Below, piece after piece: positions 4,359 through 44,036 of a stretch of 48,068 bases of DNA; position 1 is the stretch's first letter, and each line of letters begins with the position of its first letter. Origin of the DNA: Candidatus Gottesmanbacteria bacterium (GTDB lineage Bacteria > Patescibacteriota > Microgenomatia > UBA10105 > UBA927). The DNA is taken from positions 110,714 to 158,781 of the forward strand of contig JAUXTO010000042.1 in NCBI GenBank assembly GCA_030679255.1. Direction: 5' to 3'. Below the pieces are notes generated by a model. It had not been told where the DNA came from. It searched no databases and worked only from the letters and a program-made list of their open reading frames with translations. Both the position numbers and the translations under genes were made by a program.

Positions 4359-4364
4359 CTCTAG

Positions 4365-4680
4365 CGCTCCCAGAGGGAATCCCTGCCCGCTAGCGCCTGA
4401 GCCTAGCTCTGGCAGGCGGGGAACCTTCATTTCCTCTTTACCTGCCCGCCGCGCCATTAATAAAAAAGTACGGCTGTATGCGCTCCCGGTGGGAATCGAA
4501 CCCACAACCTACTCTTTAGAAGAGAGTTGCTCTGTCCATTGAGCTACGGGAGCCTATCGGTAATTATACAACGGGTTAAGATTTTCTGCGCGCTTTGGCA
4601 GGCGGGGAAGAGAGGTGCCCCGCCTGCTACACCTCCAGCGTAGCTCTGGCGGGCAGGTCTATCCGTTGAGCTATGGGAGC
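4365..4680 (-). pseudogene. Interrupted outer tRNA-Arg(TCT) with three palindromic insertions, one containing an intact tRNA-Arg(TCT)
   Basis: Joining 4680-4658, 4618-4607, 4440-4421 and 4381-4365 gives GCTCCCA TAGCTCAACGGATAGAGCA CCTCT CTTCTAA AGAGG AAAT GAAGG TTCGATT CCCTC TGGGAGC G, a full cloverleaf. Confidence 0.85.
4481..4553 (-). tRNA. tRNA-Arg(TCT), nested
   Basis: Acceptor GCTCCCG/CGGGAGC, anticodon arm ACTCT-CTTCTAA-AGAGT. Confidence 0.95.
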
Positions 4681-21413: not shown

Positions 21414-21429
21414 GCAATTTTTCCGTTTG

Positions 21430-21677
21430 AGCCCAGAGAAGGAATTGTCATGCGAAGCGTGATTTGGCTTCGCCAGAAACCCACGACCGAGTTCTTACCG
21501 CGCTCGCCGCGCCTACCTTGAGCCCAGAGAGGGAATTGAACCCTCGACCTCTTTCTTACCAAGAAAGCGTTCTGCCGCTGAACTATCTGGGCGCTATGGC
21601 GGGCGAGCCAAGAACTCGCTCCCCGCCTGCAACGCTTAGCCTAGCATTGCGGGCAGGTACCACTGAGCCATTCGGGC
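21430..21677 (-). pseudogene. Interrupted outer tRNA-Thr(GGT) with three insertions, one containing an intact tRNA-Thr(GGT)
   Basis: Pieces 21677-21658, 21621-21608, 21497-21478 and 21447-21430 join to GCCCGAA TGGCTCAGTGGTAGAGCG AGTTC TTGGTAA GAACT CGGTC GTGGG TTCAATT CCTTC TCTGGGC T. Confidence 0.8.
21521..21592 (-). tRNA. tRNA-Thr(GGT), nested
   Basis: Acceptor GCCCAGA/TCTGGGC, anticodon arm CTTTC-TTGGTAA-GAAAG. Confidence 0.95.
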
Positions 21678-22998: not shown

Positions 22999-23070
22999 AG
23001 CCGACGAGAGGATTTGAACCTCCAACCTTCGCTTTACAAAAGCGCTGCTCAACCATTGAGCTACGTCGGC
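22999..23070 (-). tRNA. tRNA-Thr(TGT), innermost and intact
   Basis: Acceptor GCCGACG/CGTCGGC, anticodon arm GCGCT-TTTGTAA-AGCGA. Confidence 0.93.
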
Positions 23071-23084
23071 GTAAATGTACGGGA

Positions 23085-23129
23085 CTAACTCACAGTATAA
23101 CTCACTTCGTTCGCTAACTGTGAGTTGAG
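23085..23129. repeat. 45-nt hairpin element (second copy at 23301-23345)
   Basis: CTAACTCACAGTA…CTCACTTCGTTCGC..ACTGTGAGTTGAG, two near-identical copies at tRNA anticodon split points. Confidence 0.85.
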
Positions 23130-23476
23130 CAAAACAGTTGCTCGGACTTTATCCGCCTCTGGCGGAACTGAGCTACGCCAGCTTAGAAGTACGGGATCCC
23201 GCACCTCTAAGCCAAATTGTACAACAATTTGGCAAGATGGTGCTGGGACAAAACCGTCGCTCTGCCGTTGAGCTAGGGAGGCGAGCATAAATGTACGGGA
23301 CTAACTCACAGTATTACTCACTTCGTTCGCAAACTGTGAGTTGAGCAAAACAGTTGCCCCGCCCGCTACGCCTGAGCGTTAGCTCTGGCGGGCAGGTCTA
23401 CCACTGAGCTACGCCAGCAACTCGTATTGAAATTGTACCAAAGACTACGAAGATCAACAACATTTGAGGTTAAAGA

Positions 23477-23698
23477 GTGGAAGTAAAGAAATAATTCCGC
23501 CTGCCAGCAATGCTTACGCAAAGCGTTTGCAGGCTGGCCCGGTAGGATGAAGGTATTTTCCCCGATTTGATCAATCGGAAGGACCGTCTCACTGACCAAG
23601 GCCAGTGAAGAACTTTAGTCCTGTCTCCTGCGCCAAAAATTGGTGCAGAATACCTCATTGTTCATGATTTTGTGGAGGAAAATATTCTCCATCTCCAC
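23477..23698 (-). ncRNA. Putative 6S-like rod-shaped RNA carrying two palindromic inserts
   Basis: Minus-strand TTGACA-17-TAAGCT promoter upstream. Terminal stem GTGGA/TCCAC, stems ATGAGGTATT/AATACCTTCAT and AGGAC/GTCCT around a central bubble, apical TCACTGGCC/GGTCAGTGA; no convincing ORF. Confidence 0.5.
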
Positions 23699-25686: not shown

Positions 25687-26634
25687 TCAAGAGGGCAAAT
25701 AGGCATCCTGAAATTGCGTCCAGGAGACAGGATTCTTGCCTTCAAGTTGGACGGTGTCAAATTGTAGGTTGTAGGTCGTAGGTTGTAGATGAAGAGAGAG
25801 GATTTTAAGCCGCTTTTCTTCACTTTTGACTTGAATAGTCGTCCATACTCCCGGCCAGGGGAAGAACGCACGGAATTTCCGGTCAAGTCTTTGCGCTTCA
25901 TTGGGATCGATGAACGCTTTTTGTATTGCCTCCCATGACTCGAATCCATCATCGCGGGAAAGTCTGCGGGCATATGGTGATGGAGAGGGGGGTGACGAGT
26001 GACGGGTGACGGGTTTATGATCGAGATATGATGGTAAATACTTCGCAAGGAGCTCTGCACCCAAGGTAAAAAGTTTCGTCCGCAGAGGATCACTTGTATC
26101 CGTATCCGTTATGGACATTTTTTTTCGGGCAATAATAGTACCGGTATCAAACGTGTCCGATAGCGTTACGACCGTCACACCGGTCTGGTGGTCTCCGGAA
26201 AATAGTGCCCACGGCACAGGGTCGGCTCCCCGCCAGCGGGGAAGAAGGGACGGATGGACATTGAGTCCACCGAACGCGGCATCACGAATGGTTTTTTGGG
26301 GAATTTTCTGGCCGTAACACGCGCTCACTATCAGGTCAGCTTTAAACGGTTGGAGCGTGTCAATCACTTGATGTTCATCAGCGTACGCCCAGGACTTTTC
26401 GGCGGCGCTGGCAAACGAAAGCACAGGAATGATGTGTTCTTTTGCCCAAGCCTCTACGGGGGTCGGCGTCATCGTTTGTTTCCGGCCTACGGCGCGGGGA
26501 GGTTGGGTGACCACACAGGCAATTTCCAATGACCATCCGCCAGCTGGCGGACCAATGACCAATGCGTACAATGCGCTTAAAACAATGACAGAGTCATCTG
26601 TCGAGCCGAAAAAGATTATTTTTACTGTTTGCAT
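25687..26634 (-). CDS. fmt: Methionyl-tRNA formyltransferase
   Basis: IIFFGS, VVTQPPR.VGR, ACYGQKIP, NVHPSLLPRWRGA.P, RAF.PWPG, VQLEGK. Confidence 0.95.
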   Translation of the reverse strand: MQTVKIIFFGSTDDSVIVLSALYALVIGPPAGGWSLEIACVVTQPPRAVGRKQTMTPTPVEAWAKEHIIPVLSFASAAEKSWAYADEHQVIDTLQPFKADLIVSACYGQKIPQKTIRDAAFGGLNVHPSLLPRWRGADPVPWALFSGDHQTGVTVVTLSDTFDTGTIIARKKMSITDTDTSDPLRTKLFTLGAELLAKYLPSYLDHKPVTRHSSPPSPSPYARRLSRDDGFESWEAIQKAFIDPNEAQRLDRKFRAFFPWPGVWTTIQVKSEEKRLKILSLHLQPTTYNLQFDTVQLEGKNPVSWTQFQDAYLPS

Positions 26635-26646
26635 ACTCTGTACTAT

Positions 26647-27258
26647 TTATTTAAGAATAATCTCTTCCAGCGCTTCTTTGCCTTCCGCATCCTTTACTGA
26701 TTGGTAGAGCTTTCCTTTTTGTTCGAGCACCCGATGGGTGAAAAGGATACCATTGGTGTGGTCCGTTTCATGTTGGAGGATCGTCGCCATAAAACCGGTA
26801 AATTCTTCTTCGTGGGATACGCCGACTTCATCCTGGTAGCGCAAGGAGATGCCGCTAGCACGCTTCACTCTCCCCCAAATTGCGTCAATCGAGAGACATC
26901 CTTCGAGTTTATTATCTGGCGAAGCCAGATCCCGCTTCGCAGGATCCCACTCGGGCCCGACTGCAACGCTATGCGTAGCATTGCGGGCAGGAACTCCTTC
27001 AGTAAGAGCATCAGACCGCTTGATGATTTCAGGATTAATAAATACCCGGATCGGATCATCATCCTTTGGACGAGTGATAAACATCCGGAGGGCAAAGCCT
27101 ACCTGCGGCGCGGCAAGCCCCACCCCTTTGGGTTTACGTGTTGCCCGGAGAGTCTTCTTCATGTCTTCAATAATGGCAATAAGTTTTGAATCAAAGACTC
27201 GTATTGATTCAGCGGGTCTTGTTAACACATTGTGCGGTACTTTTACTATCTGTTTCAT
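26647..27258 (-). CDS. def: Peptide deformylase
   Basis: GVGLAAPQVG, EGCLS, QHETDH; carries in-frame palindromic inserts. Confidence 0.95.
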   Translation of the reverse strand: MKQIVKVPHNVLTRPAESIRVFDSKLIAIIEDMKKTLRATRKPKGVGLAAPQVGFALRMFITRPKDDDPIRVFINPEIIKRSDALTEGVPARNATHSVAVGPEWDPAKRDLASPDNKLEGCLSIDAIWGRVKRASGISLRYQDEVGVSHEEEFTGFMATILQHETDHTNGILFTHRVLEQKGKLYQSVKDAEGKEALEEIILK

Positions 27259-27283
27259 ACAAAACTTGTCACGATCACCGATT

Positions 27284-29614
27284 TTATTCGTTGACTTTCG
27301 ATAAAAATTCTTTATCACCTGCATCTACTTTTGCGAGATAGTCCTTCAGTACCGTACGCGCAAGATCGGATTTTCGTATCTCGGTATAAAATACCCAAAG
27401 GGCATAGTAGCCATCACGATAGTTCGGTTTGAGGGTAATGGTAGATTTGAGAAGATCTATAGCTTTTGTATTATCTCCTTTACGACCGTACAGAATAGAG
27501 AGATTGTAGGTAATCTTCGGATCGTTGGGAGATAATCTCTGTGCTTGTTCGAGAGCGGCAATCGAAGCGTCGTTAAAAGCCGGATCGAAAGAGGAAAATG
27601 TGTAATAGATCTTCGTGCGTGTTTTCCAAAAATTGACGTTTTTGGGACTCGTGGTAATTGCCCGGTCGCTTTCGGCAAGACTCATGCGCACGAATTGGGC
27701 GGCTCGAGTGGCATCCTTCTCCTCAATTGCTGTCGTCGCGAGTCCCGCGTATGCCATCCCTAGCTCATCGGCAAACAATGGTTCAAGCGGATTATAGGTG
27801 AGCGCTTGGGATAATTTCGCGACCGCCACATCATATTGCCCGGCCCGGCTCATGCGATACCCGCTCGCATAAAGTGTATCTGCGTACCAACCCGCCGATA
27901 GCAACGCAAGCAAGCCAAACAATACAAGCAAGACCAGATAGACCGGAATGAGCGATAGAGCATTCGTCTGTTTTGAAGAAGATAAGAATGATACATGATA
28001 AAAAGTATTCTTGTTTCTTGTTTCTTGGTTTTTGATCGTTAAACTCATGATGATCGCCGGAAAAAGAAATAGAAATACTTGCACAATGACGACAGAGAAT
28101 CCGAAGAAGTTTGTGACGAGGATAGAGAGCCAACCGGCAAAGAGGGCTGCACGTAAGCACCAAGCATCAAATTCCAAATTCCAAACAAAATTTAGGGGAT
28201 TTGTTTGTGATTTGGTGCTTGGAATTTGGGATTTGATGAACCAAAATACAAAAGAACTAAGAAGTAATAGGTAGCTTCCGAGTCCAAAAATCCCCGTTGT
28301 AGCCAAGTAGTTGAGGTATTCGTTGTGGGCTTTGTTGTAGAGGAAATCCCATTCGCTCGTCATGTTATGCCCCTGGGGTCGGTATTGGTAAAACGCAAAT
28401 GCAAAGGTCTCCGTGCCGGTGCCGATGAGATAGGCTTTCGTCGAACTTCTCCATGCGTTGATTGCCCCCTGCCAGACGTATTTTCGTATCGTTCCGGATT
28501 CCGTGCCTCCGGTTTCCAAAAGGGGAGCGGTAAATGCTGAGGCGGAAGCCTCGGTGGTTGTAGGTGGTAGGTTGTAGGTTGTAGATTGTGGAAGGCGGGA
28601 TTTCCAGCCGTCAAGCGTAAGCCAACGATCAACCGAGGCGATGGACGTGCCGCTAAAGAATACGATGAGAAAAAAGGATACATGTACAAGGATAAAGGAT
28701 AGATACCCGGGTTTCAAAGCCTGGCTTTGATTTGATTTGGAGCGTCGTAATAATCCGATAAAAAATAACCCCCAAAACACGATATCTGCGACAGCAAACG
28801 CAAAGAGCCCTGAGCGGGAGCGGGTGAAGAGGAGGACGGCAAAAAACAAAATGACCAATGACCAATGACCAATGACCAATAAAATATTCAAGAAATAATT
28901 TTTGTTTGGAAATTGAAAATTGAAAATTGTCCCGCGAAGCGGGATCCCGCTTCGCGTGAGAAATTGTAGCCCGAGCGCCATAGCTAGCGGCGTGAGGGCG
29001 ACCAGGTATGCTGCCAGCCAATTGGGCTGTCCCAACGTCGAGAACACACGATTCTGTACATCCTGTACCCAGAGGTGGCGGTCAATGCCCAACCGTTCCG
29101 CGACCCCGTAGAGGGCGACGACAACACCAGTGGCGAGGGAGATTTTAAGTATATAGGTTAGGGTATTTAGGGGTAAGGGACCATCCGATGATTTATCCGA
29201 GATTTTATTCCTAAATACTAAATACTTTTCCCTAAATACTTCCCCTATGTTGCTTATCAATGCGTAGTACAGCAGCACATAGCTGATGATCGATAACATC
29301 CCGCCATTAAACCGGCTGTAGTAGCCAAACCATGAGACGTGAGGATCGATAGAGAAGAGAGAAGAGAGAAGCTGAGAAAAGAGGAAGAGGAGAATCGGGA
29401 TATCCAACGGTGTTTTGGCAATCCGAAGCTCTCTTTGATGAACGCTCTTGACGAGCCACGCACCGGTTATGACGACCGTGAGGGCGTAGACTGCCATCAT
29501 TTTATTAAATTCAAACAGTTCGTAGTTCCAGGGGGTCAGAAGGATAGGCACCAGGCCAAAAAGGAGATAGAATCCCCACCGGATCACGCGGTCACACCAT
29601 AGGCTCACATTCAT
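27284..29614 (-). CDS. O-antigen ligase family membrane protein with C-terminal TPRs
   Basis: Many TM helices, STLGQPN, TRSRSG, IGTG.ETF, AHNEYL, TPR-like C-terminus. Confidence 0.85.
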   Translation of the reverse strand: MNVSLWCDRVIRWGFYLLFGLVPILLTPWNYELFEFNKMMAVYALTVVITGAWLVKSVHQRELRIAKTPLDIPILLFLFSQLLSSLFSIDPHVSWFGYYSRFNGGMLSIISYVLLYYALISNIGEVFREKYLVFRNKISDKSSDGPLPLNTLTYILKISLATGVVVALYGVAERLGIDRHLWVQDVQNRVFSTLGQPNWLAAYLVALTPLAMALGLQFLTRSGIPLRGTIFNFQFPNKNYFLNILLVIGHWSLVILFFAVLLFTRSRSGLFAFAVADIVFWGLFFIGLLRRSKSNQSQALKPGYLSFILVHVSFFLIVFFSGTSIASVDRWLTLDGWKSRLPQSTTYNLPPTTTEASASAFTAPLLETGGTESGTIRKYVWQGAINAWRSSTKAYLIGTGTETFAFAFYQYRPQGHNMTSEWDFLYNKAHNEYLNYLATTGIFGLGSYLLLLSSFVFWFIKSQIPSTKSQTNPLNFVWNLEFDAWCLRAALFAGWLSILVTNFFGFSVVIVQVFLFLFPAIIMSLTIKNQETRNKNTFYHVSFLSSSKQTNALSLIPVYLVLLVLFGLLALLSAGWYADTLYASGYRMSRAGQYDVAVAKLSQALTYNPLEPLFADELGMAYAGLATTAIEEKDATRAAQFVRMSLAESDRAITTSPKNVNFWKTRTKIYYTFSSFDPAFNDASIAALEQAQRLSPNDPKITYNLSILYGRKGDNTKAIDLLKSTITLKPNYRDGYYALWVFYTEIRKSDLARTVLKDYLAKVDAGDKEFLSKVNE

Positions 29615-29771
29615 CCTCAAAGTATACCATAGAGGGTAGAGGGATTTGACAAATTTTAAAATTTTAGGGATTATTTTTGTAAGCGGTGAAGGGTCAGGAC
29701 CCACAAGGTTGTCGCAATAAGAAATAGTACGCCCCAAACGGCGGCGTTGTTGCTGATTGTGGTATAAAAAT

Positions 29772-29993
29772 CTAAAGAAGATCAAGAAAATTTTCCTTGC
29801 TAATTTCCGCTTGTCGCAAGATAGCCATGAATGTCCCGATTCGAACCGGTTTATTATGGCGGGGAACGATCGTTCTTCGTCCATCGGGATGCCGATAAAC
29901 CACATGACTGCTTTTCGTCGTTCGTGCAATAAATCCTTTACGAACGAGTACCATTTCGATTTGACGTGGTTTGATCTGACGTAATAAGGCCAT
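29772..29993 (-). CDS. hicA: HicA family mRNA interferase toxin
   Basis: L.RKGF….SSH.VYRHPDGRRT.VPRH….GT..AILRQA.I. Confidence 0.88.
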   Translation of the reverse strand: MALLRQIKPRQIEMVLVRKGFIARTTKSSHVVYRHPDGRRTIVPRHNKPVRIGTFMAILRQAEISKENFLDLL

Positions 29994-38820: not shown

Positions 38821-40641
38821 ATGAGGAATATGAAACTCGGTCAAGCTTTTTCCGATTCGGTGATCATCGAGGCCAAAACCGCAAGCCGCGTAGGTAAAAT
38901 CCCTCCACGTGCCTGGTGGCTTGGTGCCGGACGAGCACTACTTTTTACGACCATATTGTTTGCCACACTTTTTATTCTTGCGTGGAGACTTTTTGACTTA
39001 ACCATTATTCGCGGATATGAACTGCGTGCGCTTTCCGATGGCAACCGCACCCGCGAACTTATCCGTCATGCCCCACGGGGGAGGATACTTGACCGGACCG
39101 GACGGGAACTAGCCGGTAATACGCCCACGTATCGATTCATCATGCCCTGTGGGAACAATACGATTGCTCAATGTACGAAGATCATTGACGCATCAGAACG
39201 CGCTACACTTATACATCAAGGATTAACGCCGGGCGCTTACATCGAAGATGATTTTGCTCGGTACTACCCCGCGGGTCTGGCGACCAGTCATGTCATCGGA
39301 TATACCGGAGAAATAAGCGAAAAGGAACTCAAAGATCCGTATTTTAAACTCCGAGGCTATCGGGCAGGCGACCGGATCGGCCGTATGGGAGCCGAGGCTG
39401 TCTATGAAGATCGGCTTCGTGGACGCGATGGAAGGCAACTTGTAGAGATTAACGCAAGTGGTGTGGTCACCCGCACGTTGGGAAGTGTAGAAGCCGTACC
39501 GGGCGAGGATATCACGCTTTCTCTCGATCGAAGCCTATCGGAAGCAGCACAAGTTGCTTTTCCTCAGGAGCAAAAAGGGGCAATCATCGTCTCTCGACCG
39601 ACAACGGGCGAACTATTAGCGCTTATCACGAGTCCCACATTTGATGCAAATATTTTTACTCAACCACTCTCCAAAGATGCCTATAGCAAGCTTTTTGATG
39701 ATCCTGCCTTGCCGATGTTTAACCGCGCAATTAGTGGCACTTACCCCCCGGGATCTCTTTTTAAGATTGTCACATCCATTGCCGGACTTGAAGAAAAAAT
39801 TTTGACGGCAAAGACACTCTATGAAGATACCGGTGAGGTCGTAATCGGCCCGTTTAAATTTGCAAATTGGTATTTTACAAAATATGGGAAAACGGAAGGT
39901 CTTGTCGACATTATTAAAGCTATCCAGCGAAGTAATGATATATTTTTCTATAAAGCAGGTGAGGCGATCGGCATCACCAAACTTGCGTTATGGGCCAAAC
40001 GTATGGGCATTGGGTCTCCTCTTGGGATCGAAATACCCGGAGAAGCCGGTGGTCTGATGCCTGAACCTACCTGGAAACTTCTGAGGTTTGACACTCCGCA
40101 AGATAAAATTGACCGTAATGACCAGTGGTATCTGGGAGATACGTATCACGTCGCCATTGGTCAGGGATATGTGCTCACGACCCCACTCCAGGCAAACGCA
40201 TGGACGAATGTGGTGGCAAATGGAGGAAAACTCTGCCGGCCGACCATTGAGAAAGTCAAAAGTGAAAAGTCAAAAGTCAAAAGTGAATGCAAAGATTTAG
40301 AGATTAAGACTGAAACAATTGCACTTATTACGGAAGGAATGAAAAAAACATGCGAAACGGGCGGGACGGGATGGCCTTTATTCAATTTCCAAATCACAAA
40401 CCTGCCTGCCGGCAAGGCAGGTCCCAATGACCAAACAACACTATTGATGCCAGTCGCCTGCAAGACGGGAACTGCCGAATTCGGGGACCCCGACAACAAA
40501 ACGCACGCGTGGTTTACCGTATTTGCGCCAATCAATGAGCCCGAACTATCCGTGACCGTACTCGTGGAAGCGGCAGGAGATGGCAGCGATAAAGCCGCAC
40601 CCATTGCGAAAAAAATATTGGAGGAGTGGTTTTCACGATAA
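38821..40641 (+). CDS. mrdA: Penicillin-binding protein 2
   Basis: APRGRILDR, YPPGSLFK (SxxK), SND, KTGT motifs. Confidence 0.92.
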   Translation: MRNMKLGQAFSDSVIIEAKTASRVGKIPPRAWWLGAGRALLFTTILFATLFILAWRLFDLTIIRGYELRALSDGNRTRELIRHAPRGRILDRTGRELAGNTPTYRFIMPCGNNTIAQCTKIIDASERATLIHQGLTPGAYIEDDFARYYPAGLATSHVIGYTGEISEKELKDPYFKLRGYRAGDRIGRMGAEAVYEDRLRGRDGRQLVEINASGVVTRTLGSVEAVPGEDITLSLDRSLSEAAQVAFPQEQKGAIIVSRPTTGELLALITSPTFDANIFTQPLSKDAYSKLFDDPALPMFNRAISGTYPPGSLFKIVTSIAGLEEKILTAKTLYEDTGEVVIGPFKFANWYFTKYGKTEGLVDIIKAIQRSNDIFFYKAGEAIGITKLALWAKRMGIGSPLGIEIPGEAGGLMPEPTWKLLRFDTPQDKIDRNDQWYLGDTYHVAIGQGYVLTTPLQANAWTNVVANGGKLCRPTIEKVKSEKSKVKSECKDLEIKTETIALITEGMKKTCETGGTGWPLFNFQITNLPAGKAGPNDQTTLLMPVACKTGTAEFGDPDNKTHAWFTVFAPINEPELSVTVLVEAAGDGSDKAAPIAKKILEEWFSR

Positions 40642-40693: not shown

Positions 40694-41821
40694 ATGGATG
40701 ATGAAAAAAAGTATTGGGTTGCATTCAGTGTTTTTCCCGGTATCGGGCCGGTACGGTTTAAGCTTTTACGTGACTATTTTGGGAGTGTCGTGGACGCATG
40801 GAACGCGAGTCCTCAAGCTCTTCGGAAAATCCACCTTGGAGAAAAACTCGTACAAGAATTCATCATCTTTCGCGAAAGTTTTCCTTTAGATGATTATCTC
40901 ACGCAGCTCGGCAAACAACATGTCCACATATTGACCCTTGATGATCCACGTTACCCCAAACGTCTCAAAGAAATTCCCGATGCGCCGTTTCTTCTCTACA
41001 TCAAAGCCAAACCCGGTCAGGAAAAGTTGAATCTCGATCGGACTATAGCTGTCGTCGGAACACGCAAAATCACCCATTATGGAGAAGAAGTTACGCGGCG
41101 GATCGTCAAAGGGCTCGTCGCGCATGGCTTTACCATCGTCTCCGGCATGGCCTACGGAGTGGATGCCGTAGCCCATCAAACGGCTATCGATGCGGGAGGC
41201 AAAACGATCGCGGTACTCGGATGCGGTATTGACATTATCGCTCCGCCAAGTAATGCTAGATTGTATCGGGCGATAGGAGAGGAGGGCGGCGGAGCAATAG
41301 TTTCGGAGATGCCGCTTGGGTTACGGCCCAATAAAGGACTCTTCCCGGCCCGGAACCGTATCATTAGTGGATTATCTATGGGTGTGGTCGTCACGGAAGG
41401 AGCGGATGACAGTGGAGCACTCATAACGGCCAGGAATGCAACCGAGCAGGGGAGAGAGGTGTTTGCTATACCGGGGCCCATTACGAGTCCGTATAGCCGA
41501 GGACCGGCGAGTCTCATTAAAAAGGGTGCTAAATTAGTAGAACGGGTGGAGGATATACTGGAGGAACTCAATATTAATACTACTCCTTCGACTGCGCTCA
41601 GGACAGGCAATCCGGCAAATACTACCAAGACTCAATATAAAGCAGATACAAAAGAGGAACAAATCATCATCGATCAACTACAGAAAGAACCGATGCATAT
41701 TGATGAGATTGTAAGGAGTAGCGGCTTGACCGCGTCTGCGGTGGCTGCTAGTATCACGATTCTGGAAATGAAGCATGTGATCCGGGATTATGGGGAAAAG
41801 AATTATGGAATAAGAGAATAA
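40694..41821 (+). CDS. dprA: DNA processing protein DprA
   Basis: AVVGTR, IVSGMAYGVD..AH, FPARNRIISGLS, SGALITA, GREVFAIPG. Confidence 0.95.
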   Translation: MDDEKKYWVAFSVFPGIGPVRFKLLRDYFGSVVDAWNASPQALRKIHLGEKLVQEFIIFRESFPLDDYLTQLGKQHVHILTLDDPRYPKRLKEIPDAPFLLYIKAKPGQEKLNLDRTIAVVGTRKITHYGEEVTRRIVKGLVAHGFTIVSGMAYGVDAVAHQTAIDAGGKTIAVLGCGIDIIAPPSNARLYRAIGEEGGGAIVSEMPLGLRPNKGLFPARNRIISGLSMGVVVTEGADDSGALITARNATEQGREVFAIPGPITSPYSRGPASLIKKGAKLVERVEDILEELNINTTPSTALRTGNPANTTKTQYKADTKEEQIIIDQLQKEPMHIDEIVRSSGLTASAVAASITILEMKHVIRDYGEKNYGIRE

Positions 41822-41927: not shown

Positions 41928-44036
41928 ATGATTCTCATCATCGTCGAATCACCAACGAAAGCCCGCACCCTTACCCGTTTTCTTAGCGGCAAAGGCGACT
42001 ATCGCGTGGAAGCCACCATGGGCCACATACGGGATTTGCCCAAAGCTACACTTGGGGTCGACTTGGATCATGATTTTGCGCCAAGTTACATCATTCCCAA
42101 AGACCGTCAGAAAAGAGTCGGAGAACTCAAAGCACTCGCCAAAAAAGCCGATTCTGTCATCCTTGCAACTGATCCGGACCGCGAAGGGGAAGCAATCGCT
42201 TGGCATGCGGCGAGCTTACTCGCGGATAGTCGTCAGTCGTCAGCCCGCCTGCAGGCGCCTGGAGCGCCAGCGACTGGCGGGCAGGTCGTCAGTCGTCAGA
42301 AAAAAAATAAAAAGTCTGAAGGCAGAAAGCTGACCGCTGATAGCTTCCGTCGTATCATCTTCCACGAAATTACGGAGTCGGCAATTCATGAAGCAATCTC
42401 ACAACCGAGGGAAATAGATCTCAAACTCGTGGATGCCCAACAAGCCCGCCGGGTCCTTGACCGCCTCGTCGGATATAAACTCTCTCCGCTTCTCTGGCAA
42501 AAACTTTCCCGCCGGTGGCTTTCTGCCGGCCGCGTCCAATCCGTGGCGGTACGACTGATCGTAGAACGGGAAAGAGAAATAGAAAAGTTTGGGAAAGAAG
42601 AATTTTGGACAATCGAGGGCAAATTTCTATTATCCAATTCTCAAATTAACGCGCAATTAGTAAACAAAAACGGAGAGAAATACGAAAAATCACTAACGTA
42701 TACGCTTTTTGATGGAACGTATACGACCACCAGTTCGTCAATAGACAATAAACAAAAAGCAGAAAGCGTTATAGCGGATCTTCGATCTCCCTACACAGTG
42801 TCGGCCGTCGATACGAAAGAAATCCGCCGGAGCCCGCCGCCGCCGTATACCACAAGTACCCTTCAGCAGGATGCGGGGCGACGATTAGGATTTTCAGCCA
42901 AACGCACGATGCAACTTGCGCAAAAATTGTATGAAGAAGGCATTATTACCTACCACCGGACGGACAGTGTCAATTTAGCGGAAAAATTTATCGGTGAAGC
43001 ACGAGCGTACATCGAACTCACGTATGGCGCCCGGTACTCACCGGAGAAGCCACGCCGCTACCAAACCAAGTCCAAACTTGCCCAGGAAGCACATGAAGCA
43101 ATCAGGCCGACGGACGTAGGAATGACCAATGACCAATTTCCAAATCCCAATGCGGAACTCAACCGAGATCACCATCGTCTCTATGGTCTCATCTGGAAAC
43201 GGGCCTTAGCGTGCCAGGTGAAAGAGGCAGTGTTTGATTCGACCACGATCAAAATCGCAAGTGGCAATGGCTACCAGTTCGAGCTACAGGGATCAGTCAT
43301 CAAATTTGACGGCTATCTCATAGTGCTCGGTCGCGAGACCGATGGTGAGGCTCAGCTACCTCGCGTATCGGTAGGAGAAATCGTCACATTAGACGCTACG
43401 AGTCCTTCCGAACATTTCACTATGCCTCCGCCACGATATACGGAAGCCACCCTCGTTAAAGCTCTCGAAGAAGCCGGGATAGGCCGTCCGAGCACGTATG
43501 CTCCAATTATTTCTACGATACAGGAACGCATGTATATCGCCAAAGAAGAAAAAAAATTGGTCCCTACTGATCTCGGATTTTCCGTCACGGACTTTCTCGT
43601 GCAATATTTTCCTACCATACTCAAGCTTCCATTTACCGCCCATATGGAAGATGAATTCGATCAGATTGCAGCGGGCTCCAAGGCATGGCAACCGGTTATC
43701 CGCGATTTTTATACACCATTTGCCGTTGAGCTTGCTCAAGCCTACGAATCTGCAGAAAAAGTGAAAATGCCCGTAGAGACGCTCGATGAAAAATGTCCTG
43801 ATTGCGGGTTTGCTCTCGTCATCCGTACTGGCCGGTATGGCAAGTTCATCGCATGCAGCACGTTTCCTGCGTGCAAATACAGCCGTCAACTCATCGAAAA
43901 GATCGATAAGCTATGCCCCCGCTGCGGGGGAGATATCATTGTCAAAAAAAGCAGAAAACGAGGAAAAACGTTTTATGGATGCGGCAATTACCCGACCTGT
44001 ACGTTTGCCGCATGGAAGAAGGAAGATATAAAATAG
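41928..44036 (+). CDS. topA: DNA topoisomerase I
   Basis: IVESPTKA, ATDPDREGE, SAGRVQS, ITYHRTDS, AHEAIRPT, GIGRPSTY, C-terminal zinc ribbons. Confidence 0.97.
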   Translation: MILIIVESPTKARTLTRFLSGKGDYRVEATMGHIRDLPKATLGVDLDHDFAPSYIIPKDRQKRVGELKALAKKADSVILATDPDREGEAIAWHAASLLADSRQSSARLQAPGAPATGGQVVSRQKKNKKSEGRKLTADSFRRIIFHEITESAIHEAISQPREIDLKLVDAQQARRVLDRLVGYKLSPLLWQKLSRRWLSAGRVQSVAVRLIVEREREIEKFGKEEFWTIEGKFLLSNSQINAQLVNKNGEKYEKSLTYTLFDGTYTTTSSSIDNKQKAESVIADLRSPYTVSAVDTKEIRRSPPPPYTTSTLQQDAGRRLGFSAKRTMQLAQKLYEEGIITYHRTDSVNLAEKFIGEARAYIELTYGARYSPEKPRRYQTKSKLAQEAHEAIRPTDVGMTNDQFPNPNAELNRDHHRLYGLIWKRALACQVKEAVFDSTTIKIASGNGYQFELQGSVIKFDGYLIVLGRETDGEAQLPRVSVGEIVTLDATSPSEHFTMPPPRYTEATLVKALEEAGIGRPSTYAPIISTIQERMYIAKEEKKLVPTDLGFSVTDFLVQYFPTILKLPFTAHMEDEFDQIAAGSKAWQPVIRDFYTPFAVELAQAYESAEKVKMPVETLDEKCPDCGFALVIRTGRYGKFIACSTFPACKYSRQLIEKIDKLCPRCGGDIIVKKSRKRGKTFYGCGNYPTCTFAAWKKEDIK

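What the first reader, a model, noticed from the sequence alone, without database searches (positions are those of the whole stretch)
26915..26991. The palindromic elements that split tRNAs also sit in frame in essential proteins
Seen: def carries a 30-nt element (26915-26944) that matches the Thr(GGT) T-loop insert at 27 of 30 positions. It also carries a 36-nt element (26956-26991) closely similar to the D-loop insert, just before EGCLS. Others occur in topA (42244-42285, 42 nt), mrdA (40401-40421, 21 nt), the O-antigen ligase (28930-28959, 30 nt), fmt (26536-26551) and dprA (41585-41607). Many copies in non-coding tRNA also have lengths divisible by 3 (30, 36, 39, 39, 39, 45), though some do not (38, 52). 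Established analogy: Rickettsia palindromic elements. Inference: a frame-preserving insertion system that adds peptide loops, or removable hairpins.
Basis: partly seen in the sequence, partly recalled or inferred. Interest (0 to 1): 0.7.

Follow-up and report, generated by a model that had tools for sequence, protein, structure and literature searches.

The report
Tiny mobile hairpins translated inside genes
Two very small hairpin-forming DNA repeats (30 and 36 letters) have been dropped cleanly, in frame, into the only peptide deformylase gene and many other housekeeping genes of this ultra-small groundwater bacterium, and the 36-letter one is a near-identical element found across many bacterial phyla that can also carry whole tRNA genes.

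Summary
Observation largely confirmed. def carries a 30-nt (A) and a 36-nt (B) palindromic unit. Together they add 22 residues that 19 of 19 orthologues lack. Removing them restores GVPEWDNKL against GVPERDNKL, with no target duplication. In this genome 30 of 49 curated A/B copies lie inside long ORFs, 26 of them in genes backed by Pfam or orthologues (LeuRS, GluRS, GyrA, TopA, IF-2, IMPDH and others). Non-3n variants (35 and 38 nt) occur only outside genes.

Best reading: miniature non-autonomous mobile DNA that is retained and translated as disordered loops. This is an RPE / intragenic-REP / SDR-like case. The mobilising enzyme was not identified.

I found no support for RNA-level removal. 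The tRNAs the elements "split" are relics, each nesting an intact tRNA.

B-type arms bracket complete tRNA genes in 22 of 30 cassettes across Patescibacteria. Most sit inside a disrupted tRNA gene of the same anticodon, and one case has a clean empty site in a sister species.

Earlier agents of this scan noted the 36-nt hairpin elsewhere in this genome (e1-1325776). As far as their notes show, they did not report the tRNA cargo.

The parts
26647..27324 (-). def (peptide deformylase). The likely start is the ATG at 27258, giving 203 aa. It is the only def match in the genome.
   Evidence: Pfam Pep_deformylase, 1.8e-41. One match in G000. Orthologues start at MK.IV.
26956..26991 (-). B element, 36 nt. 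The sense strand reads CCTGCCCGC...GCAGTCGGG and encodes PARNATHSVAVG. It is inserted between GTT and CCC.
   Evidence: It differs by one mismatch from the pan-phylum 36-mer.
26945..26955 (-). Eleven native def bases (CCC GAG TGG GA) lying between the two inserts.
   Evidence: Collinear with CCG GAG AGG GA of the G002 orthologue.
26915..26944 (-). A element, 30 nt. It is an inverted dimer of a 15-nt hairpin, encodes (D)PAKRDLASP(D), and is inserted inside a GAT codon.
28930..28959 (-). A element, 30 nt, in the Wzy_C/TPR O-antigen-ligase-like gene (27284-29929). It encodes TRSGIPLRGT and is flanked by heptamer-type repeats.
42244..42285 (+). B-family 42-nt variant in topA (41928-44036), flanked by GTCGTCA heptamers. 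It lies in the linker between the Toprim and Topoisom_bac domains.
   Evidence: An identical 42-nt variant with similar arms is in gyrA (G000 C25:52914).
26536..26551 (-). 16-nt perfect palindrome in fmt (25687-26634), set within CATTGGT heptamers. It gives a net +4 aa.
   Evidence: 5 genomic sites, 0 in a shuffle.
40401..40421 (+). 21-nt palindrome in mrdA/PBP2 (38821-40641), in a hypervariable loop.
   Evidence: 3 sites. Not a clean insertion relative to orthologues.
41585..41607 (+). 23-nt two-copy repeat in the dprA inter-domain linker. It is a weak hairpin and its membership is doubtful.
21429..21677 (-). Outer tRNA-Thr(GGT) relic. It carries B in the D loop (21622-21657), A in the T loop (21448-21477), and a 110-nt anticodon-loop insert (21500-21609) that holds the intact tRNA-Thr(GGT) at 21520-21592.
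   Evidence: G003 has the same layout but lacks B exactly.
4364..4680 (-). Outer tRNA-Arg(TCT) relic. It carries B39 in the D arm (4619-4657), B39 in the T loop (4382-4420), and a 166-nt anticodon-loop insert with B-type ends (4441-4606) that holds the intact tRNA-Arg(TCT) at 4480-4553.
   Evidence: Excising all three inserts gives an ARAGORN tRNA-Arg(tct).
23358..23396 (-). B39 copy in the D arm (GGTAGA^GC) of another tRNA-like fragment upstream of tRNA-Thr(TGT). A 38-nt copy lies at 23500-23537.

Best explanation
The def inserts are copies of two families of miniature, non-autonomous, hairpin-forming mobile DNA.

- A is 30 nt long and is an inverted dimer of a 15-nt hairpin.
- B is 36 nt long, with conserved asymmetric ends CCTGCCCGC...GCAGGCGGG.

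The elements insert precisely and without target duplication. Insertion sites include heptamer-repeat runs, hairpin loops (tRNA D, anticodon and T loops, and the apex of other copies) and ordinary coding sequence.

Inside essential genes only some copies survive: those whose length is a multiple of three, that are read in a stop-free phase, and that land in tolerant surface loops or linkers. These copies stay in the mRNA and are translated as short disordered loops.

Shown: clean lineage-specific insertion, family membership, the intragenic census, the frame and length pattern, and a disordered loop in the model.

Inferred: that the copies are translated rather than removed, and that a trans-acting enzyme which handles single-stranded hairpin DNA moves them. 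An HUH/Y1-type transposase is the leading candidate but is not linked to A or B here.
For: Clean insertion in def.
- 19 of 19 orthologues lack the 22 aa.
- Removing 36 + 30 nt restores a collinear reading, GVPEWDNKL against GVPERDNKL.
- def is single-copy in this genome.

An exact empty site for B.
- The D loop of the tRNA-Thr relic in sister species G003 reads AGTGGTA|GAGCGAG, with no duplication.

Family census in the genome.
- 49 curated copies, 10 of A and 39 of B.
- 30 of 49 lie in long ORFs.
- 21 of the 26 ORFs I scanned have Pfam domains (LeuRS, UvrD-like helicase, RNase H, GyrA, TGT, IF-2, DnaJ, ATP synthase gamma, IMPDH, RseP, TsaE, GluRS with two copies, and others).
- The window genes are confirmed by Pfam.

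Lengths.
- All A copies are 30 nt.
- Simple B copies measure 36 (x15), 39 (x7), 42 (x3), 38 (x3) and 35 (x1). The 38- and 35-nt copies occur only outside genes.
- Nested composites in genes measure 69, 69 and 72 nt.

Reading phase.
- 0 of 22 coding B copies lie in a stop phase.
- Across phyla the PARNATHSVAGG phase is open through the whole 156-nt locus in 57 of 111 loci. Other open phases score 23-34, and the two stop phases score 1 and 4.

Mobility.
- Presence is patchy: 11 of 41 relatives carry the element. G000 has 12 copies, G001 has 7, and G002 and G003 have none. The reversed-pattern control gives 0.
- Of G001's 7 copies, 1 shares a site with G000 and 5 sit at other sites.

Structure.
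- The AlphaFold2 model of Def has mean pLDDT 86.3. Only residues 95-115, which are the insert, fall below 50.

Enzyme candidates.
- The genome holds at least 7 Y1/HUH transposase genes.
- 7 of 10 A copies are flanked by TTG on one side.
Against: - No RNA or protein data: no RNA run holds this DNA. Retention in mRNA and translation are therefore inferred from frame and length statistics alone.
- Copies share ancestry and some move together with heptamer arms, so the frame statistics overstate independence.
- No enzyme is tied to A or B. The Y1 genes I inspected are flanked by other palindrome families. Y1 genes occur in 35 of 41 relatives, against 11 of 41 for B, so presence does not discriminate.
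- B shows no conserved flanking tetranucleotide. There is only a weak preference, purine at -1 and C/G at +1.
- B orientation does not follow GC skew, so there is no lagging-strand signature.
- mrdA and dprA do not behave as clean insertions.
Confidence: 0.8

Rival explanations
1. Removable hairpins. The elements are transcribed but then cut out of mRNA and tRNA precursors by an RNA-level process (intron-like, or cleavage followed by ligation). On this reading the proteins and tRNAs are unchanged.
For: - The same elements sit in tRNA D, T and anticodon loops, where a retained insert should destroy function.
- The stems contain G.T pairs that are more stable on one strand (sequence reading).
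- The genome does splice at least one tRNA by a group I intron.
Against: - Every insert-bearing tRNA examined here has an intact same-anticodon tRNA nested inside it.
- The outer tRNA-Thr is decaying in G003: its anticodon stem is broken.
- Excising A and B copies rebuilds no additional tRNA.
- Coding copies avoid stop phases, and non-3n variants are absent from genes. Removal at RNA level would not require either.
- No Rfam intron matches at these sites.
Confidence: 0.06
2. Host-beneficial modules. The hairpins are kept in genes because they do something useful, for example as pause or attenuation sites, gyrase or recombination sites, or flexible linker peptides. On this reading they are not merely tolerated parasites.
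For: - One reading phase, PAR(N)AT.SVAGG, is strongly preferred, in 10 of 22 coding copies here and 57 of 111 loci across phyla.
- One insertion, in the UvrD-like helicase, is shared by G000 and G001.
- Two topoisomerase genes carry the same 42-nt variant.
Against: - The host proteins are functionally unrelated.
- Insertion sites differ between sister species.
- 19 of 19 def orthologues work without the insert.
- The insert is predicted to be disordered.
- The phase bias can be explained by selection for the least harmful peptide, and by co-movement with heptamer arms.
Confidence: 0.1
3. Home-grown palindromes. The hairpins arise locally by replication slippage or template switching in repeat-rich loops, and are not copies of a mobile element.
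For: - Many sit in heptamer runs that themselves expand by slippage.
- The mrdA and fmt palindromes are tiny and have few copies.
Against: - The same 36-mer, with the same asymmetric mismatches, occurs in more than 20 unrelated genes here and in many phyla.
- Both def inserts and the tRNA-relic copy lie outside any heptamer run and have exact boundaries.
- The reversed-pattern controls give 0 matches.
Confidence: 0.04

Closest known systems
Rickettsia palindromic elements (RPE; Ogata et al. 2000). I saw this only as summarised in passages of PMC3733652.
   Same: These are dispersed palindromic repeats inserted in frame in genes that still encode functional proteins. They add peptide segments.
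   Different: - By my recollection RPE-1 is roughly 100-150 bp and confined to Rickettsia.
- A and B are 30 and 36 nt and have no sequence relation to RPEs.
- B is near-identical across phyla.
- B nests in heptamer runs and hairpin loops, and its arms can bracket tRNA genes.
REP / REPIN elements with RAYT transposases, including intragenic REPs (Di Nocera et al. 2013, PMC3733652, passages read; Bertels & Rainey 2011, PMC3116915, passages read).
   Same: - Both are 20-40 nt GC-rich imperfect palindromes, and A is an inverted doublet like a REPIN.
- Intragenic copies encoding 20-30 aa are reported in repair and replication genes.
- The genome holds several Y1/RAYT-like genes, each with its own flanking palindromes.
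   Different: - B has no GTAG or CGTC tag and no flanking RAYT.
- Most copies are intragenic (30 of 49), whereas REPs are mostly intergenic.
- B is shared nearly unchanged between phyla, whereas REPINs are described as vertically inherited (abstract listing).
Small dispersed repeats (SDR) nested in heptamer repeats of Nostoc (Elhai et al. 2008, Genome Res 18:1484). The paper is not held. The reference was seen in PMC3116915; the content is recalled.
   Same: These are very small hairpin repeats found inside tandem heptamer arrays and inside one another, with an unknown mobilising enzyme.
   Different: - By my recollection SDRs are 21-27 nt and cyanobacterial.
- Here the units are 30-42 nt, mostly inside housekeeping genes, spread across phyla, and able to carry tRNA cargo.
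IS200/IS605-type single-strand 'peel and paste' transposition (abstract of PMC6006769 seen in the listing; details recalled).
   Same: - Hairpin-structured ends.
- Precise insertion and an exact empty site, with no target duplication.
- 7 of 10 A copies lie next to TTG, which resembles insertion 3' of a short target word.
   Different: - In B the two ends pair with each other rather than forming separate end hairpins.
- B has no conserved target word.
- There is no replication-strand bias.
- No linked transposase gene was found.
Disrupted and intron-bearing archaeal tRNA genes, and mobile elements that integrate into tRNA genes (PMC4390854, PMC3293823; abstracts seen in the listings).
   Same: tRNA genes are interrupted at the D arm, anticodon loop and T loop by short, similar inserts. 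Mobile DNA is implicated in the disruption.
   Different: - This is a bacterium.
- The interrupted genes look like relics.
- The insert itself carries a complete replacement tRNA of the same anticodon, between hairpin arms.

Membership tests
REP/RAYT (REPtron, REPIN) | Short GC-rich imperfect palindrome present in many dispersed copies | tested here: met
   A has 10 copies and B has 39 entries in the genome. A shuffled genome gives 0 matches for the related small palindromes.
REP/RAYT (REPtron, REPIN) | GTAG or CGTC tetranucleotide tag at one end | tested here: not met
   B ends in CCTGCCCGC/GCAGGCGGG, and 111 flank pairs show no conserved tetranucleotide. Only 6 of 24 single 15-nt A-type hairpins are followed by GTAG.
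REP/RAYT (REPtron, REPIN) | A cognate RAYT gene flanked by the same repeats | tested here: not met
   The genome gives 9 Y1_Tnp matches. Those with flanking palindromes carry other families (clusters 0, 1, 2, 8 and 15). None is flanked by A or B.
REP/RAYT (REPtron, REPIN) | Predominantly extragenic location | tested here: not met
   30 of 49 copies lie inside long ORFs.
Rickettsia palindromic elements | In-frame insertion in ORFs whose orthologues lack the segment | tested here: met
   Shown for def (19 of 19 orthologues), topA, the ligase-like gene and fmt.
Rickettsia palindromic elements | Sequence or length relation to the RPE families of Rickettsia | not tested
   No RPE sequence was available to a tool. 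The lengths (30-42 nt) differ from RPE-1 as I recall it.
IS200/IS605-derived miniature elements | Insertion 3' of a fixed 4-5 nt word, with no target duplication | tested here: inconclusive
   There is no duplication at def, at the tRNA relic or at the tRNA-Leu site. TTG lies beside 7 of 10 A copies. B shows only a purine at -1 and C/G at +1.
IS200/IS605-derived miniature elements | Orientation tied to the lagging-strand template | tested here: not met
   On contig C38, where GC skew is uniformly negative, B orientation is 3:3. Orientation follows the gene strand instead.
Self-splicing or enzyme-spliced intervening sequence | Match to a known intron model, or need for removal because no intact gene copy exists | tested here: not met
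   Rfam finds no intron at these sites. Intact same-anticodon tRNAs are nested inside each interrupted tRNA. BHB motifs were not evaluated.
Small dispersed repeats in heptamer arrays (Nostoc SDR) | Hairpin unit nested in tandem heptamer repeats and in other copies | tested here: met
   13 B copies sit in AGTCAAA runs without breaking the repeat phase. Six composites have a 33-nt unit at the apex of a 36-nt unit. Membership by sequence could not be tested because the paper is not held.

The most novel reading that the evidence does not exclude
B is the minimal, cargo-free form of an undescribed class of hairpin-ended mobile element shared across bacterial phyla.

The element's two short arms can carry a complete tRNA gene at the apex. 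These armed tRNA cassettes land in the loops of resident tRNA genes. They survive when the cargo has the same anticodon as the gene it destroys, so resident tRNA genes are replaced by incoming alleles and are left behind as nested relics. The cargo-free 36-mer spreads into protein loops by the same machinery.

Evidence not excluded by anything I found:
- In 22 of 30 cassettes across 401 sampled Patescibacteria genomes, the arms enclose a complete tRNA.
- Excising the cassette rebuilds an outer tRNA in 10 of 30. ARAGORN calls the same anticodon in 9 of those 10, and I read the tenth as the same. Inner and outer tRNAs are co-oriented in 10 of 10 and share 63-85% identity.
- One clean empty site exists: the tRNA-Leu(CAA) gene is intact in G001.
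- One counter-example exists: in G020 an outer Thr-like gene holds an inner tRNA-Ile.
Probability: 0.45. Interest if true: 0.9.

Novelty: new variant of a known kind. Interest (0 to 1): 0.74.

Why it matters
Selfish DNA only 30-36 letters long is lengthening loops of essential, single-copy enzymes in a bacterium with a minimal genome. The affected genes include deformylase, topoisomerase I, gyrase, IF-2 and two aminoacyl-tRNA synthetases. This is a route to new protein sequence, and it is also a caution for annotation and for structure-based comparison of CPR proteins.

The same 36-mer, unchanged, is present in distant phyla. This points to horizontal spread or a shared recognition machinery, and either would make it among the smallest mobile units known.

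If the tRNA-cassette reading holds, it gives a testable mechanism for tRNA gene turnover and for the origin of disrupted tRNA genes in bacteria. I found no paper on that subject in four literature searches.

Tried and rejected
- **RNA evidence.** The look-up of sequencing runs listed only the probable source DNA sample, and no RNA holder. I therefore did not use read laying, and expression is untested.
- **Replication-strand bias of B.** None was seen.
- **Link to Y1 transposases by neighbourhood** **and by presence or absence across 41 relatives**. Neither was informative.
- **Candidate autonomous element.** The B composites at C23:152012 and C23:153434 flank small ORFs inside a ~170-nt direct duplication. 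I did not scan those ORFs, and nothing there resembles a transposase by eye.
- **Excision tests.** Excising all A and B copies from the genome produced no new ARAGORN tRNA. The same was true of excising the 36-mer from the 115 cross-phylum loci with 60-nt flanks. A single-excision scan around G000's 47 tRNAs rebuilt no outer tRNA. The G000 relics need three excisions.
- **Rfam in permissive mode over window 1-24000.** It gave no partial tRNA hits and no intron at the relics.
- **Vectors for horizontal spread.** There were 0 matches in IMG/VR viral contigs, PLSDB plasmids and INPHARED phages.
- **Flank complementarity across phyla.** It was no higher than in shuffles (1.51 against 1.49 of 6 pairs). 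'Always lands in a stem' is therefore rejected, and loop targeting holds only for the tRNA and nested subsets.
- **First hairpin census.** With stems of 9 or more it was barely above a shuffled genome (1535 against 939), so I replaced it with family-based counts.
- **My first regex lengths for nested copies.** The 47, 48 and 55 nt values were boundary artefacts, corrected.
- **Literature.** The 14-mers of B occur in no relevant held paper. Supplements are not searched by that tool.
Full report
**Setting.** The window is G000:C29:110714-158781, from a 1.45-Mb, 44-contig genome of 46.9% G+C. Earlier notes of this scan call the organism a Candidatus Gottesmanbacteria (CPR) genome; I did not verify the name. 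The window holds 19 ARAGORN tRNAs and the start of a 16S rRNA gene.

**The observation in def.** The 30-nt stretch at 26915-26944 is 27/30 complementary to 21448-21477 (pair I6). The 36-nt stretch at 26956-26991 is 32/36 identical to C29:132335-132370, which is window 21622-21657.

A search of 41 related genomes found def in all of them. In most, the match breaks into query residues ~20-114 and ~137-224 on contiguous DNA. An alignment of 20 sequences shows that 19 of 19 orthologues lack the 22 residues. One of them, L003, has a different and shorter insertion of its own.

On the sense strand G000 reads GGA GTT [36 nt] CCC GAG TGG GA [30 nt] T AAT AAA. Aligned with the three same-genus genes, removal of the two units leaves GVPEWDNKL against GVPERDNKL. 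There is no duplicated or lost flanking base. G000 has only this one def match.

An AlphaFold2 model built on the 20-sequence alignment has mean pLDDT 86.3 and pTM 0.84. Only residues 95-115, which are the insert, fall below pLDDT 50, and the catalytic motifs are intact.

- **topA.** The 42-nt unit has B-type ends and encodes ARLQAPGAPATGGQ. It is flanked by GTCGTCA heptamers, lies in the Toprim/Topoisom_bac linker, and is absent from G003 and G001.
- **Ligase-like gene.** This is a 30-nt A copy in a lineage-specific loop.
- **fmt.** A 16-nt perfect palindrome sits inside CATTGGT heptamers and gives a net +4 aa. It has 5 genomic sites, one with the same arms.
- **mrdA.** A 21-nt palindrome with 3 sites lies in a loop that is as long or longer in relatives, so no clean insertion can be called.
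- **dprA.** The 23-nt stretch folds at only -1.1 kcal/mol. It has one other copy and gives +5 aa against genus relatives. I regard it as doubtful.

**Census in the genome.** A pattern search gave 52 hits. I dropped four: two that belong to another palindrome family, one non-hairpin, and one overlapping duplicate. I added the T-loop A copy, which leaves 49.

A has 10 copies, all 30 nt long. Each is an inverted dimer of a 15-nt hairpin, and that hairpin has 24 single sites. B has 39 entries.

Thirty of the 49 lie in long open frames. I fetched 26 ORFs and scanned them with Pfam, and 21 had domains: LeuRS, a UvrD/PD-(D/E)XK helicase, DUF3105, RNase H, polyprenyl synthase, a KAS-III-like enzyme, GyrA, TGT, IF-2, DnaJ, FemAB, ATP synthase gamma, IMPDH, RseP, three glycosyltransferases, PMT_2, TsaE, GluRS (two copies in one gene), and DUF359. 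Counting the four window copies, 26 of 30 intragenic copies are in genes supported by Pfam or orthologues.

**Length and reading phase.** Simple B copies measure 36 (x15), 39 (x7), 42 (x3), 38 (x3) and 35 (x1) nt. The four that are not multiples of three all lie outside genes. Six composites carry a 33-nt unit exactly at the apex of a 36-nt unit. They measure 69, 69 and 72 nt in genes, and 69, 69 and 71 nt outside.

Among the 22 coding B entries, the sense strand starts CCTGCCCGC in 16 and CCCGCCTGC in 6. Ten are read as PAR(N/I)A..S.A.G, and none lies in a stop phase. Thirteen sit inside AGTCAAA heptamer runs without breaking the repeat phase, which gives ...SQKS-PARNATQSVAGG-KVKS....

These counts are not independent events, because copies share descent and some probably move together with their arms.

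**Evidence for mobility.**
- The tRNA-Thr(GGT)-like gene of the window has B in its D loop. In same-genus G003 the locus has the same layout but lacks the 36 nt exactly (AGTGGTA|GAGCGAG).
- With up to 2 mismatches the 36-mer occurs in 11 of 41 relatives: G000 has 12, G001 has 7, and G002 and G003 have none. The reversed-pattern control gives 0 everywhere.
- Of G001's seven copies, one is at the same site as in G000 (the helicase gene). Five are in genes where G000 has none at that place; one of these corresponds to a spot where G000 has the heptamer run without B. One is in a short ORF.

**Spread across phyla.** Ninety of the matches are the identical 36-mer. They come from MAGs labelled Patescibacteria (many classes), Verrucomicrobiota, Lentisphaerota, Kiritimatiellota, Bdellovibrionales and Gammaproteobacteria, and their flanks are diverse.

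The flanks show only a purine at -1 (89 of 111) and C or G at +1 (87 of 111). They are not complementary to each other. In 57 of 111 such loci the PARNATHSVAGG phase is open through all 156 nt. Other stop-free phases score 23-34, and the two stop phases score 1 and 4. In-frame residence is therefore general.

I found no copy in viral contigs, plasmids or phage records. The 14-mers of B occur in no relevant held paper.

**The 'split tRNAs'.** The genome has 47 ARAGORN tRNAs. It also has a tRNA-Met(CAT) with a genuine group I intron (RF00028, 56.3 bits).

The insert-bearing tRNAs are of a different kind. At window 4364-4680 an outer tRNA-Arg(TCT) carries a B39 in the D arm, a B39 in the T loop, and a 166-nt anticodon-loop insert. 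The ends of that insert are B-type, and its interior holds the intact tRNA-Arg(TCT). At 21429-21677 an outer tRNA-Thr(GGT) has B, A, and a 110-nt insert holding the intact tRNA-Thr(GGT). Removing the three inserts in silico gives ARAGORN cloverleaves in both cases.

In G003 the 3' half of the outer Thr gene has diverged and its anticodon stem is broken, whereas the inner tRNA is 100% identical between the two species. These outer genes therefore look like relics. That removes the main argument for RNA-level removal of the hairpins.

**tRNA cassettes (beyond the finding).** At G000 C40:7712-7828 the arms CCTGCCCGCAAT... and ...AAGCGTTTGGCAGGCGGG enclose a complete tRNA-Leu(CAA). The whole unit sits between C32 and T33 of a resident tRNA-Leu(CAA). 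Same-genus G001 has that resident gene intact and uninterrupted, with a 3' half identical to G000's outer half. G003 has the cassette together with further deletion.

I then searched 401 Patescibacteria genomes for CCTGCCCGC-N85-115-GCAGGCGGG. This gave matches in 19 genomes (34 listed) and 0 for the reversed control. Results for the 30 loci I analysed:
- 22 enclose a complete tRNA.
- Excising the cassette rebuilds an outer tRNA across the junction in 10.
- ARAGORN gives the same anticodon as the inner tRNA in 9 of those 10. The tenth (L288) was called Gly, but it carries an extra palindrome and its junction reads TTCACA^TC, which I read as the same CAC.
- Inner and outer tRNAs are co-oriented in 10 of 10, and are 47/75 to 65/77 identical.
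- Insertion points lie in the D arm or the anticodon loop.

By eye, seven more share the anticodon, four are undetermined and one is cut by a contig end. G020 is a counter-example with other arms: an outer Thr(GGT)-like gene, with B at the same D-loop site as in G000, holds an inner tRNA-Ile(GAT).

The simplest reading has three steps. Armed elements favour tRNA loops. Insertions that destroy a needed tRNA are lost unless the cargo replaces it. The resulting relic is then free to collect further cargo-free copies.

**Mechanism.** Precise ends, absence of target duplication, conserved asymmetric mismatches in the stem, nesting in hairpin loops, and TTG beside 7 of 10 A copies all point to an enzyme acting on folded single-stranded DNA. 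The genome has at least seven Y1/HUH transposase genes. The ones I inspected are bracketed by other palindromes, and one even contains its palindrome in frame. Y1 genes are in 35 of 41 relatives, and B orientation ignores GC skew. The enzyme therefore remains unidentified.

**Comparison with known kinds.** In-frame palindromic repeats are known from Rickettsia (RPE) and from intragenic REPs in several phyla, often in repair and replication genes (PMC3733652, passages read). REPINs and RAYTs are described in PMC3116915 (passages read). The Nostoc SDR paper is not held and is cited from recall.

What differs here: the size (30-36 nt), the predominance of intragenic copies, the near-identity across phyla, the absence of a GTAG/CGTC tag or a cognate RAYT, and the arms that carry tRNA genes. 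Searches for nested or disrupted bacterial tRNA genes returned archaeal and organellar work only (listings). Searches on CPR palindromic repeats returned nothing on point.

**Relation to earlier notes of this scan.** Earlier agents reported the 36-nt hairpin with heptamer arms elsewhere in this genome and in other phyla (e1-1325776). They also reported RAYT-linked in-frame palindromes here (e1-1134630, e1-1134651, e1-1057876). I re-derived the first independently and partly re-checked the second.

**Verdict.** The finding is real for def, topA, the ligase-like gene and fmt. It is weak for mrdA and dprA. It is a new variant of a known kind, namely in-frame miniature palindromic mobile DNA. The hairpins are most probably retained and translated. 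The element family has properties that deserve direct study: pan-phylum identity, loop targeting and tRNA cargo.

Noticed in passing
window 4364-4680 and 21429-21677; G000 C40:7712-7828 (L254); loci L271-L300: Complete tRNA genes, bracketed by B-type hairpin arms, sit inside disrupted tRNA genes of the same anticodon. In G001 the tRNA-Leu(CAA) gene is an intact empty site. The pattern recurs in 22 of 30 cassettes from 401 Patescibacteria genomes.
   Followed up: partly
G000 C23:86575-86835 (L252:425-615, minus strand): A tRNA-Met(CAT) is interrupted by a 191-nt group I intron (RF00028, 56.3 bits). One of the intron's hairpins has the TCCCGCTTAGCGGGA shape of the 15-nt A-type unit.
   Followed up: partly
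whole genome G000: ARAGORN finds 47 tRNAs but no tRNA-Asn(GTT). Only one uninterrupted CAT tRNA is present. The genome is about 95% complete, so this may be an assembly gap.
   Followed up: no
G000 C36:19916-20563 (minus strand): A RAYT-like Y1 gene is split by one TAG. It is flanked by the palindrome CAAAGCCWGGCTTTG and also contains that palindrome in frame. tRNA fragments with inserts lie just downstream (C36:20730-21140).
   Followed up: partly
G000 C23:151990-153590: A direct duplication of about 170 nt, including a 69-nt nested B composite, brackets two or three small ORFs on the minus strand. This may be an inserted gene cassette.
   Followed up: no
window 23069-23357: A 216-nt tandem duplication (73 nt at 96% identity) contains a long hairpin (CTCAACTCACAGTT...ACTGTGAGTTAG) and tRNA 5' fragments, upstream of tRNA-Thr(TGT).
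   Followed up: no
G020 locus L246 (minus strand, around 968-1003): An outer tRNA-Thr(GGT)-like gene has perfect acceptor, D and T arms. It carries B at the same D-loop site as in G000, and its anticodon-loop insert of about 200 nt holds a complete tRNA-Ile(GAT).
   Followed up: partly
loci L145 and L149 (Saccharibacteria and Nomurabacteria MAGs): The 36-mer sits in the same larger unit (GCGGTTA-B-GCTCAGTTG...AAAAAATATGTTTTATAC) in two different CPR classes, and twice in one contig.
   Followed up: no
G375 loci L289, L296, L300: B-type arms enclose AT-rich cargo of about 70 nt with no tRNA. The unit is inserted between complementary flanks (GCTTACGA^...^TCGTAAGG), that is, in the loop of another hairpin.
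   Followed up: no
window 26647-27324: The longest def ORF starts at 27324, but orthologues start at the ATG at 27258 (MKQIVKVP). The first 22 codons are probably not translated.
   Followed up: partly
many contig ends of G000 (e.g. C2:17457-17596, C4:30646-30784, C36:21540-21671): The same ~140-nt IS200/IS605-like end, with a CCCCGGCCGTAAGGCCGAGGG hairpin, terminates several contigs. This indicates a multi-copy IS that breaks the assembly.
   Followed up: no
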